Shown one piece after another: positions 63,259-63,339 of a stretch of DNA of 64,000 bases. Numbering within the stretch: position 1 is the stretch's first letter; each line of letters opens with the position of its first letter. The notes under the pieces were generated by a model. The model was not told where the DNA came from, made no database searches, and saw only the letters and a program-made list of their open reading frames with translations. Position numbers and translations under genes: made by a program. Source of the DNA: Escherichia coli (GTDB lineage: Bacteria > Pseudomonadota > Gammaproteobacteria > Enterobacterales > Enterobacteriaceae); NCBI RefSeq assembly GCF_044324875.1, contig NZ_CP172185.1, one strand, 5' to 3'.

Positions 63259-63339
63259 ATGACTGATTGCCGATACCTTATTAAACGGGTCATCAAAATC
63301 ATCATTGCTGTTTTACAGCTGATCCTTCTGTTCTTATAA
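63259..63339 (+). CDS. shoB: Type I toxin ShoB (26-aa hydrophobic membrane peptide)
   Basis: ATGACTGATTGCCGATACCTTATTAAACGGGTCATCAAAATCATCATTGCTGTTTTACAGCTGATCCTTCTGTTCTTATAA encodes MTDCRYLIKRVIKIIIAVLQLILLFL; AGGAAAAA ribosome-binding site upstream. Under 60 aa, so absent from the ORF track. Confidence 0.85.
   Translation: MTDCRYLIKRVIKIIIAVLQLILLFL

What the first reader, a model, noticed from the sequence alone, without database searches (positions are those of the whole stretch)
63259..63339. ShoB type I toxin ORF is present but invisible to the ORF track
A 26-codon ORF with a ribosome-binding site encodes MTDCRYLIKRVIKIIIAVLQLILLFL, which I recognise as the ShoB small hydrophobic toxin of the shoB-ohsC type I toxin-antitoxin pair located between acpS and yfhL. 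It is missed by any ORF caller with a 60-aa cutoff. The 700-bp acpS-yfhL intergenic region is otherwise unexplained by protein-coding features.
Basis: partly seen in the sequence, partly recalled or inferred. Interest (0 to 1): 0.4.

Follow-up and report, generated by a model that had tools for sequence, protein, structure and literature searches.

The report
Known E. coli ShoB toxin gene

Summary
ATG 63259 to TAA 63339 (+) encodes MTDCRYLIKRVIKIIIAVLQLILLFL, identical to E. coli K-12 ShoB (b4687). RefSeq annotates shoB at exactly this place in a strain whose acpS-yfhL spacer is 100% identical, and the spacer sequence occurs in 5,425 of 5,426 complete E. coli genomes.

ohsC is at 62858-62936 (-), with an Rfam score of 106.6 bits against a threshold of 50. 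The published promoter hexamers and the AAGGAA ribosome-binding site are all present.

The first 20 nt of OhsC pair with shoB 5'UTR 63165-63184. In this strain one pair is a G.U wobble where K-12 has A-U.

Across 16 Escherichia sequences the ORF shows 8 synonymous and 4 conservative changes, so it looks like a constrained coding frame. A longer overlapping frame in the 5'UTR shows no such constraint.

About one third of E. coli carry a second allele in which five adjacent bases differ identically in ohsC and in its shoB target, so pairing is kept.

Toxicity, transcript sizes and OhsC repression rest on K-12 literature and were not tested here. Verdict: already known, low interest.

The parts
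63259..63339 (+). shoB coding sequence, 26 codons plus TAA. It encodes a small toxic peptide with a charged N-terminal half and a hydrophobic C-terminal half.
   Evidence: Translation is identical to K-12 b4687. RefSeq annotates a shoB CDS at the same position in the 100%-identical strain GMF054. Exact-sequence look-up names it ShoB. Substitutions are 8 synonymous and 4 conservative. Hydropathy (GRAVY) is -0.07 for residues 1-13 and 3.25 for residues 14-26.
63247..63252 (+). Shine-Dalgarno AAGGAA, 6 nt upstream of the ATG.
   Evidence: Read from the sequence. It is the same RBS reported as 100% conserved in E. coli (PMC11264685 Table 2).
63237..63242 (+). Anti-SD UUCCUU. It is predicted to pair with the SD in a 6-bp hairpin with a 4-nt loop.
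   Evidence: Minimum-energy and centroid folds of the predicted mRNA. The hairpin is retained in the consensus fold of 15 distinct Escherichia sequences. This is in silico only.
63043..63072 (+). shoB promoter: -35 GTGACC (63043-63048), 18-nt spacer, -10 TAAAAT (63067-63072).
   Evidence: Found by the promoter scan. The hexamers are identical to those published for shoB (PMC11264685 Table 2).
63079..63398 (+). Predicted shoB primary transcript, about 317-320 nt: a 5'UTR of about 180 nt, the ORF, and a 3'UTR ending in a terminator. The 5' end is inferred to within a few nt.
   Evidence: The start is inferred from the -10 box and the end from the hairpin. The fold gives -102.3 kcal/mol with z = -5.1 against shuffles. 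The length agrees with the roughly 320-nt K-12 transcript (PMC5668327).
63165..63184 (+). OhsC target site in the shoB 5'UTR, 75-94 nt upstream of the start codon.
   Evidence: It is the shoB-side copy of the direct repeat. Duplex prediction gives 20 consecutive pairs within a -43.0 kcal/mol interaction. Pair counts show 97.9% of cells paired and 5 pairs changed on both sides.
63357..63398 (+). shoB terminator hairpin (stem 63357-63366 with 63381-63390, and an inner stem) followed by a T/A-rich tail.
   Evidence: Inverted repeat I3 and the fold. K-12 differs on both stem sides (C-G here, T-A in K-12). The simple terminator scan did not flag it, so its function is inferred.
62858..62936 (-). 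ohsC, the antitoxin small RNA gene, 79 nt. It is transcribed divergently from shoB.
   Evidence: Rfam RF02495 ohsC_RNA scores 106.6 bits against a gathering score of 50, E = 3e-18, covering the full model over 62860-62936. The K-12 ncRNA b4608 maps to these coordinates through the alignment.
62917..62936 (-). 5' end of OhsC (GUUGAGGGUGCGUGCUGCAC), which pairs with the shoB 5'UTR.
   Evidence: It is the ohsC-side copy of the direct repeat. C at 62925 (T in K-12) gives a G.U instead of an A-U pair.
62944..62973 (-). ohsC promoter: -35 TTGTAA (62973-62968) and -10 CATAAT (62949-62944).
   Evidence: Found by the promoter scan. The hexamers are identical to the published ones (PMC11264685 Table 2).
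62856..62906 (.). Near-palindromic G+C-rich hairpin that serves as the OhsC terminator on the - strand and probably as the acpS terminator on the + strand.
   Evidence: Inverted repeat I1, 19-nt arms, 95% complementary. The Rfam ohsC model's 3' half matches on both strands. The same palindromy is noted in PMC11264685.
62459..62839 (+). acpS (holo-ACP synthase), the upstream flank. Context only.
   Evidence: ORF list and RefSeq annotation of the identical strain.
63534..63794 (-). yfhL (4Fe-4S ferredoxin), the downstream convergent flank. Context only.
   Evidence: ORF list (where it is listed from an upstream TTG) and RefSeq annotation.

Best explanation
This is the chromosomal shoB-ohsC type I toxin-antitoxin locus of Escherichia coli, intact in this strain.

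shoB is transcribed from the GTGACC/TAAAAT promoter into a highly structured mRNA of about 320 nt. Its 26-codon ORF encodes a small peptide with a positively charged N-terminal half and a very hydrophobic C-terminal half. When overproduced in K-12, this peptide depolarises the inner membrane and stops growth.

The primary transcript is probably translationally inert. The Shine-Dalgarno sequence is predicted to sit in a 6-bp hairpin, and a long 5' hairpin buries part of the regulatory region. Removal of about 41 nt from the 5' end, as reported for K-12, gives the active form of about 280 nt.

OhsC is a 79-nt RNA transcribed divergently from a site about 140 nt upstream of the shoB start of transcription. 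Its first 20 nt pair with the shoB 5'UTR roughly 75-95 nt upstream of the start codon. This blocks toxin synthesis, most likely by occluding a ribosome standby or loading region and/or by triggering cleavage, as shown for tisB/IstR-1 and zorO/OrzO.

Shown here: gene identity, the anatomy of the locus, base-pairing and its co-variation, coding constraint on the ORF, and the predicted structures.

Taken from K-12 literature: toxicity, depolarisation, transcript sizes and repression by OhsC.

Inferred: the standby-occlusion mechanism.
For: Peptide identical to K-12 ShoB and named ShoB in public databases.

shoB is annotated at the same coordinates in a 100%-identical strain, between acpS and yfhL. 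K-12 has the same gene order, with ohsC annotated.

The spacer sequence is present in 5,425 of 5,426 complete E. coli genomes, always on the chromosome.

ohsC scores 106.6 bits against a gathering score of 50 in Rfam.

The promoter hexamers and RBS equal the published ones (against PMC11264685).

The OhsC 5' end pairs with the 5'UTR: a 22-nt direct repeat, a 20-bp duplex at -43 kcal/mol, and 5 pairs changed on both sides between the two E. coli allele classes with 97.9% of cells paired.

ORF substitutions are 8 synonymous and 4 conservative, p = 0.002.

The mRNA fold has z = -5.1 with the SD sequestered. The 5' half of the OhsC target goes from 1% to 50% predicted unpaired after removal of the first 41 nt.

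Literature: ShoB toxicity is abolished by OhsC; transcripts of about 320 nt (inactive) and about 280 nt (active) exist; overexpression causes depolarisation (PMC5668327; PMC5066626). The 5' end of OhsC has 19 nt of complementarity to the shoB 5'UTR (PMC3919570).
Against: Nothing contradicts the identification.

Pfam and NCBIfam profile scans of the 26-aa peptide returned no family. This is expected for so short a query and does not count against it.

The primary experimental papers (Fozo 2008, Kawano 2005) are not held in the library, so the experimental facts are cited second-hand from papers that summarise them.

The mechanism of OhsC action on shoB has not been dissected even in K-12 (PMC5668327). 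In my folds the SD stays sequestered in the processed mRNA, so activation by 5' processing is not explained by thermodynamic prediction alone.

The five compensatory pairs come from a single block difference between two allele classes. They are one evolutionary event, and gene conversion between the two direct-repeat copies could have produced it.
Confidence: 0.96

Rival explanations
1. The 26-codon frame is a chance ORF inside a non-coding small RNA. The transcript was first catalogued as the sRNA RyfB. On this view the RNA, not a peptide, is the functional product.
For: Short ORFs are abundant by chance: the window has 412 ATG-started ORFs of at least 26 codons. No profile-HMM family matches the peptide.
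Against: Substitutions in the ORF across 16 Escherichia sequences are 8 synonymous and 4 conservative (I/V/L/A), against 24% synonymous expected, p = 0.002. The overlapping 5'UTR frame shows 6 synonymous and 19 non-synonymous (Fisher p = 0.027). An SD sits at the ideal distance. The literature reports toxicity and depolarisation from ShoB overproduction and translational reporter activity of the processed mRNA (PMC5668327, PMC5066626).
Confidence: 0.02
2. shoB translation is coupled to a leader ORF, in the manner of mok/hok. A 50-54-codon frame (GTG 63098 or ATG 63110 to TGA 63262) spans the OhsC target and ends in an ATGA overlap with the shoB start. OhsC would then act by blocking leader translation.
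For: The frame is open in all 16 Escherichia sequences examined. Its stop overlaps the shoB ATG (ATGA), and it contains the OhsC target.
Against: There is no Shine-Dalgarno before either start. The ATG is ATA in L015. Substitutions are 6 synonymous and 19 non-synonymous, many of them radical (CTL to LDS in allele class B), as expected for non-coding sequence (p = 0.47). The sequences are more than 90% identical, so an open frame in all of them is weak evidence. The frame lies in a region predicted to be tightly folded. No such ORF is annotated in K-12 or RefSeq.
Confidence: 0.04
3. The locus is recognisable but functionally decayed in this strain: weakened antitoxin pairing or an inactive promoter make it a relic.
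For: OhsC position 12 forms a G.U with the target where K-12 has A-U. Several spacer and 5'UTR bases differ from K-12. Rare strains have lost shoB altogether, for example through IS1 in strain EC96.
Against: The ORF, the RBS and both promoters' hexamers are intact and identical to the published functional ones. The predicted duplex energy is essentially unchanged, -43.0 against -43.4 kcal/mol in K-12. The C at 62925 is shared with three other Escherichia species-level genomes (L013, L015, L016), so it is probably the older state rather than a lesion. About 477 complete genomes carry this allele at 99% identity or more.
Confidence: 0.03

Closest known systems
shoB-ohsC of E. coli K-12 MG1655 (b4687 / b4608; formerly RyfB / RyfC)
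   Same: The peptide is identical. The flanks are the same (acpS, yfhL), as is the divergent arrangement. The promoter hexamers, RBS and OhsC terminator are the same, and the OhsC target is at the same place.
   Different: There are a few single-base differences: a synonymous L7 codon (CTT against CTG); C against T at 62925, giving a G.U in the OhsC:shoB duplex; compensated changes in the shoB terminator stem; and a strongly divergent stretch of about 130 bp between the shoB terminator and yfhL.
tisB / istR-1 (E. coli)
   Same: It is a type I system with a divergently encoded antitoxin RNA. The RNA's 5' end pairs over about 20 nt with the toxin 5'UTR far upstream of a sequestered RBS. The primary transcript is inert and a 5'-processed form is active. 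The toxin is a small hydrophobic depolarising peptide (PMC3919570, PMC5668327, PMC7708055).
   Different: The sequences are unrelated. tisB is controlled by LexA/SOS and has the tisA leader ORF. Its standby-site mechanism is demonstrated experimentally, whereas for shoB it is only inferred.
zorO / orzO (E. coli O157:H7) and dinQ / agrB
   Same: The divergent layout is the same, as are the long structured 5'UTRs of about 170-180 nt, activation by 5' processing, and 18-20-nt pairing by the 5' end of the antitoxin RNA. A dinQ-like four-element fold has been proposed for shoB (PMC5066626, PMC5397157).
   Different: The peptides, chromosomal locations and copy numbers differ. The pairing requirements have been defined experimentally for zor-orz but not for shoB-ohsC (PMC11264685).
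hok / sok (plasmid R1 and chromosomal copies)
   Same: It is a type I toxin-antitoxin pair with a small membrane toxin, an inert full-length mRNA and an antisense RNA repressor.
   Different: Sok is cis-encoded and overlaps the mok leader ORF, to which hok translation is coupled. Activation is by 3' processing. Here the antitoxin is trans-like and divergent, with only about 20 nt of pairing, and the candidate leader ORF shows no coding constraint.

Membership tests
shoB-ohsC type I toxin-antitoxin locus | 26-aa ShoB peptide sequence | tested here: met
   100% identical to K-12 b4687. The exact sequence is named ShoB / SHOB_ECOLI in public collections. The RefSeq product is WP_000128776.1.
shoB-ohsC type I toxin-antitoxin locus | Chromosomal position between acpS and yfhL | tested here: met
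   acpS lies at 62459-62839 (+) and yfhL at 63534-63794 (-), in the same order as in K-12 and in strain GMF054.
shoB-ohsC type I toxin-antitoxin locus | OhsC small RNA gene encoded divergently upstream of shoB | tested here: met
   Rfam RF02495 full-length match at 62860-62936 (-), 106.6 bits against a gathering score of 50. It maps to K-12 b4608.
shoB-ohsC type I toxin-antitoxin locus | About 19 nt of complementarity between the OhsC 5' end and the shoB 5'UTR | tested here: met
   20 consecutive pairs: 18 Watson-Crick and 2 G.U, one terminal and one internal. Pairing is kept across allele classes, with 5 pairs changed on both sides.
shoB-ohsC type I toxin-antitoxin locus | Published promoter hexamers and RBS (shoB GTGACC/TAAAAT, ohsC TTGTAA/CATAAT, RBS AAGGAA) | tested here: met
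   All are found at the expected places and match PMC11264685 Table 2.
shoB-ohsC type I toxin-antitoxin locus | Transcripts of about 320 nt (primary) and about 280 nt (processed), plus the OhsC RNA | not testable with these tools
   The distance from promoter to terminator predicts about 317-320 nt. The transcripts themselves are known only from K-12 experiments (PMC5668327).
shoB-ohsC type I toxin-antitoxin locus | Toxicity and membrane depolarisation on overexpression, relieved by OhsC | not testable with these tools
   Reported for the identical K-12 peptide (PMC5668327, PMC2887945).
Type I toxin-antitoxin systems (general) | Small (under 60 aa) hydrophobic peptide with a potential membrane-spanning segment | tested here: met
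   26 aa. GRAVY is 1.59 overall and 3.25 for residues 14-26. There are 4 K/R residues and 1 D in the N-terminal half.
Type I toxin-antitoxin systems (general) | The ORF is under protein-coding constraint | tested here: met
   8 synonymous and 4 conservative substitutions across 16 Escherichia sequences, p = 0.002. The control frame in the 5'UTR gives 6 synonymous and 19 non-synonymous.
Divergent-antitoxin subgroup (tisB, zorO, dinQ, shoB): structured 5'UTR with sequestered RBS | Long folded 5'UTR, SD in a hairpin, antitoxin site far upstream of the RBS | tested here: met
   The 5'UTR is about 180 nt and the fold has z = -5.1. The SD (63247-63252) pairs with 63237-63242. The OhsC site lies 75-94 nt upstream of the ATG. 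This is in silico only. Too few substitutions exist to test the intramolecular helices by covariation.
Divergent-antitoxin subgroup (tisB, zorO, dinQ, shoB): structured 5'UTR with sequestered RBS | Antitoxin acts by occluding a ribosome standby site and/or inducing RNase III cleavage | not testable with these tools
   This is inferred by analogy. The 5' half of the target becomes accessible in the processed form (1% to 50% predicted unpaired). It has not been established even for K-12 shoB (PMC5668327).

The most novel reading that the evidence does not exclude
E. coli carries two co-adapted specificity types of the OhsC:shoB pairing module. One is the 'ACCCU' type, found in this window, in K-12 and in about two thirds of genomes. 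The other is the 'GAUUC' type, found in about one third. The types would cross-react poorly: predicted cognate duplexes are -43 and -36 kcal/mol, against -23 to -28 kcal/mol for cross-type duplexes. If so, natural variation already supplies the compensatory-mutation experiment that the literature says is still missing for shoB-ohsC. Recombination between the types would release ShoB from control. The matched sequence change is observed; the functional non-cross-reactivity and any selective meaning are not, and the observation may already be in papers I could not read (Fozo 2008, Fozo 2012).
Probability: 0.4. Interest if true: 0.3.

Novelty: already known. Interest (0 to 1): 0.08.

Why it matters
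For the genome scan the result is a correct call on a gene that ordinary ORF filters miss. It shows that the acpS-yfhL spacer is a fully accounted-for regulatory locus and not unexplained DNA. No new biology follows from its presence: shoB-ohsC has been described since 2005-2008, it is annotated in RefSeq, and the spacer sequence is present in virtually every E. coli genome.

The only modest addition concerns the variation in the base-pairing region that a 2024 survey noted. That variation is matched on the RNA and target sides. This is evolutionary support for the predicted OhsC:shoB duplex and suggests a simple cross-repression experiment.

Tried and rejected
- **Profile scans.** Pfam and NCBIfam scans of the 26-aa peptide returned no family. 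The query is too short for HMM filters, so identity was established by exact look-up and by annotation instead.
- **Primary papers.** Fozo et al. 2008 and Kawano et al. 2005 are not held in the library. The experimental facts are taken from papers that summarise them.
- **Leader-ORF idea.** The frame from 63098 or 63110 to 63262 ends in an ATGA overlap with shoB. I rejected it as a constrained coding gene: 6 synonymous and 19 non-synonymous changes, the ATG lost in one lineage, and no SD. It is kept only as a low-probability rival.
- **CpxR boxes.** Searching for GTAAA-N5-GTAAA with up to 3 mismatches between the two promoters (62930-63090) found nothing. I therefore could not place the two CpxR sites reported in PMC9600279 and PMC11264685.
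- **Covariation in the shoB mRNA fold.** Too few substitutions exist: most are one-sided transitions to G.U, a few break pairs, and none is double-sided. The result is inconclusive.
- **Terminator scan.** The simple scan did not flag the shoB terminator hairpin. It is supported only by the fold, the inverted repeat and compensated differences from K-12.
- **E. albertii and E. whittamii.** Their loci were cut about 200-230 nt upstream of shoB, so their ohsC could not be read and a possible second independent compensatory event (63177 C to T in E. albertii) could not be checked.
- **Literature search.** The query 'ohsC' plus 'compensatory' returned only unrelated neuroscience papers, where OHSC means slice cultures.

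Full report
**Observation**

The + strand from ATG 63259 to TAA 63339 encodes 26 residues, MTDCRYLIKRVIKIIIAVLQLILLFL. An AAGGAA Shine-Dalgarno lies at 63247-63252, 6 nt before the ATG.

The mechanical ORF list shows the frame only when the cutoff is lowered to 20 aa. It then starts the ORF at an upstream TTG (63241), which lies before the Shine-Dalgarno and is not the annotated start.

A 26-codon ORF is not remarkable in itself. The window contains 412 ATG-started ORFs of that length or longer, so the case rests on other evidence.

**Identity**

- The K-12 MG1655 gene b4687 (shoB, 'toxic peptide ShoB') translates to the identical peptide.
- An exact-sequence look-up in the 15-billion-protein collection returns the names 'type I toxin-antitoxin system toxin ShoB' and 'SHOB_ECOLI'.
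- The 701-bp acpS-yfhL spacer has matches in 5,425 of 5,426 complete E. coli genomes, always on the chromosome.
- The best hit, strain GMF054, is 100% identical. RefSeq annotates shoB there at exactly the finding's coordinates, flanked by acpS and yfhL.
- Pfam and NCBIfam profile scans gave nothing, as expected for a 26-aa query.

**The partner gene**

Rfam's ohsC_RNA model (RF02495) matches 62860-62936 on the - strand over its full length, at 106.6 bits against a gathering score of 50. Mapping K-12's annotated 79-nt ohsC through the alignment gives 62858-62936.

The 3' hairpin of ohsC is nearly palindromic, so it also matches on the + strand. It probably doubles as the acpS terminator. The same palindromy is noted in PMC11264685.

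**Regulatory anatomy**

A plain consensus scan recovered a GTGACC-18-TAAAAT promoter at 63043-63072 (+) and a TTGTAA-18-CATAAT promoter at 62973-62944 (-). These are exactly the shoB and ohsC hexamers tabulated as 99.6-100% conserved in over 2,000 E. coli genomes, except the ohsC -35, which is TTGTAA in 66.8% and TTGTAC in 33.1%. The RBS AAGGAA is tabulated there too (PMC11264685 Table 2).

Transcription starting near 63079 and ending after the hairpin at 63357-63390 predicts an mRNA of about 317-320 nt with a 5'UTR of about 180 nt. This agrees with the roughly 320-nt full-length transcript reported for K-12 (PMC5668327).

**Base-pairing**

A 22-nt direct repeat links 62917-62938 and 63165-63186. 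Because ohsC is on the opposite strand, a direct repeat in the DNA means RNA complementarity. The first 20 nt of OhsC pair with 63165-63184, which lies 75-94 nt upstream of the start codon. The predicted interaction is -43.0 kcal/mol.

The literature describes 19 nt of complementarity through the 5' end of OhsC (PMC3919570). In this strain 62925 is C where K-12 has T, so one A-U pair becomes G.U with almost no energy cost (-43.0 against -43.4 kcal/mol). The C is shared by three other species-level Escherichia genomes (L013, L015, L016), so it is probably the older state.

**Comparative evidence**

I sampled eight E. coli loci spread down the identity ranking and six species-representative Escherichia genomes. 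The six came from a degenerate pattern for ShoB residues 1-9 run against about 100,000 species genomes. All hits were Escherichia, which matches the genus-restricted distribution reported earlier (PMC2887945).

The peptide varies only by I14V, I14V plus I15V, V11A or I22L. Within the ORF there are 8 synonymous and 4 conservative changes, against an expected 24% synonymous (binomial p = 0.002). The overlapping long frame in the 5'UTR shows 6 synonymous and 19 non-synonymous changes (p = 0.47; Fisher p = 0.027 for the contrast). So the small ORF behaves as a coding sequence and the larger one does not.

**Two allele classes of the pairing module**

E. coli has two allele classes of the locus. 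In the sampled loci of the second class (L005-L009), five adjacent bases differ in the same way in both repeat copies: ACCCT becomes GATTC. The sampled loci of this class also carry the ohsC -35 variant TTGTAC. The class makes up about 1,700 of the 5,425 genomes by identity band, which fits the published 33.1% for that variant.

On a formal count over 7 distinct sequences, 97.9% of cells pair and 5 of 20 pairs change on both sides. Register-shifted controls give 0-1 such pairs. Predicted cross-class duplexes are much weaker, at -23 to -28 kcal/mol.

This is one block event, not five independent ones. Gene conversion between the direct repeats could have produced it, so it supports the duplex without proving selection. 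No intermediate-identity (recombinant) loci appeared among 40 evenly spaced rows.

[quoted passage not shown] It says pairing sufficiency could not yet be validated, and it does not mention compensation.

**Structure and likely mechanism**

The predicted shoB mRNA folds far better than shuffles (-102.3 kcal/mol, z = -5.1). The SD pairs with UUCCUU (63237-63242) in a 6-bp hairpin. A long hairpin between 63094-63110 and 63156-63172 buries the 5' half of the OhsC target.

Removing the first 41 nt mimics the second 5' end mapped in K-12, which is the only form that gave reporter activity (PMC5066626). In the prediction this raises the unpaired probability of that half-site from 0.01 to 0.50, while the SD stays paired.

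This resembles tisB and zorO. There the processed mRNA exposes an upstream single-stranded standby site that the antitoxin RNA occludes (PMC5668327, PMC7708055). I therefore favour standby occlusion, possibly with RNase III cleavage, as the mode of OhsC action. That step is inference and is unresolved even for K-12.

Intramolecular helices could not be tested by covariation because there is too little variation.

**Rivals**

- A chance ORF in a non-coding RNA is contradicted by the substitution pattern and the published toxicity.
- A mok-like leader ORF ending in an ATGA overlap with shoB (63098 or 63110 to 63262) stays open in all sequences. However, it lacks an SD, loses its ATG in one lineage and shows no coding constraint.
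- A decayed locus is contradicted by the intact ORF, RBS, promoters and duplex.

**Verdict**

The object is the already-known, already-annotated shoB-ohsC type I toxin-antitoxin locus, so its interest is low.

The rest of the 694-bp spacer is accounted for by ohsC, the divergent promoter region, the shoB 5'UTR and terminator, and a strain-variable tail of about 130 bp carrying the likely yfhL terminator. CpxR sites are reported in the promoter region, but I could not place them by consensus.

Noticed in passing
window 62917-62936 and 63165-63184; loci L005-L009: The sampled loci of a second allele class, which makes up about one third of E. coli genomes, have five adjacent bases changed identically (ACCCT to GATTC) in ohsC and in its shoB target. 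Pairing is therefore kept within a genome but is predicted to be weak across allele classes. A 2024 survey noted variation here but not that it is matched on both sides.
   Followed up: partly
window 63098-63262 (+): A 50-54-codon frame inside the shoB 5'UTR spans the OhsC target and ends in an ATGA overlap with the shoB start codon. It stays open in all 16 Escherichia sequences but shows no coding constraint (6 synonymous, 19 non-synonymous), has no SD, and its ATG is ATA in one lineage.
   Followed up: yes
window 63400-63530: The stretch between the shoB terminator and the yfhL stop is strongly divergent from K-12, with many substitutions and an indel, whereas the rest of the spacer is about 97% identical. 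Only about 475 of 5,425 genomes carry this window's version at 99% identity or more. It contains two terminator-like hairpins on the - strand, at 63530-63514 and 63492-63479.
   Followed up: partly
locus L011 (E. coli EC96, NZ_CP060748.1), 2501-3480: In this strain an IS1 element occupies the place of shoB while the ohsC end of the spacer is retained. It is a rare antitoxin-only configuration, as also reported for two strains in PMC11264685.
   Followed up: no
window 63357-63390: The shoB terminator stem differs from K-12 on both sides of at least one pair (C-G here, T-A in K-12). The loop and inner stem differ as well, and the hairpin is preserved.
   Followed up: partly
window 63106: The window has T where all 15 other Escherichia sequences have C. 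In the predicted long 5' hairpin this turns a C-G pair into U.G, so it is compatible with the fold.
   Followed up: no
window 7730-8092, 25959-26084, 29390-29528, 32523-37539, 55619-56450, 59234-59448: Other Rfam and ARAGORN features of the window are all ordinary for this E. coli region: tmRNA (ssrA), the Phe leader, RyfD, an rRNA operon with tRNA-Glu and a StyR-44 match in the spacer, AsrC antisense to rseC, and the rncO leader.
   Followed up: no
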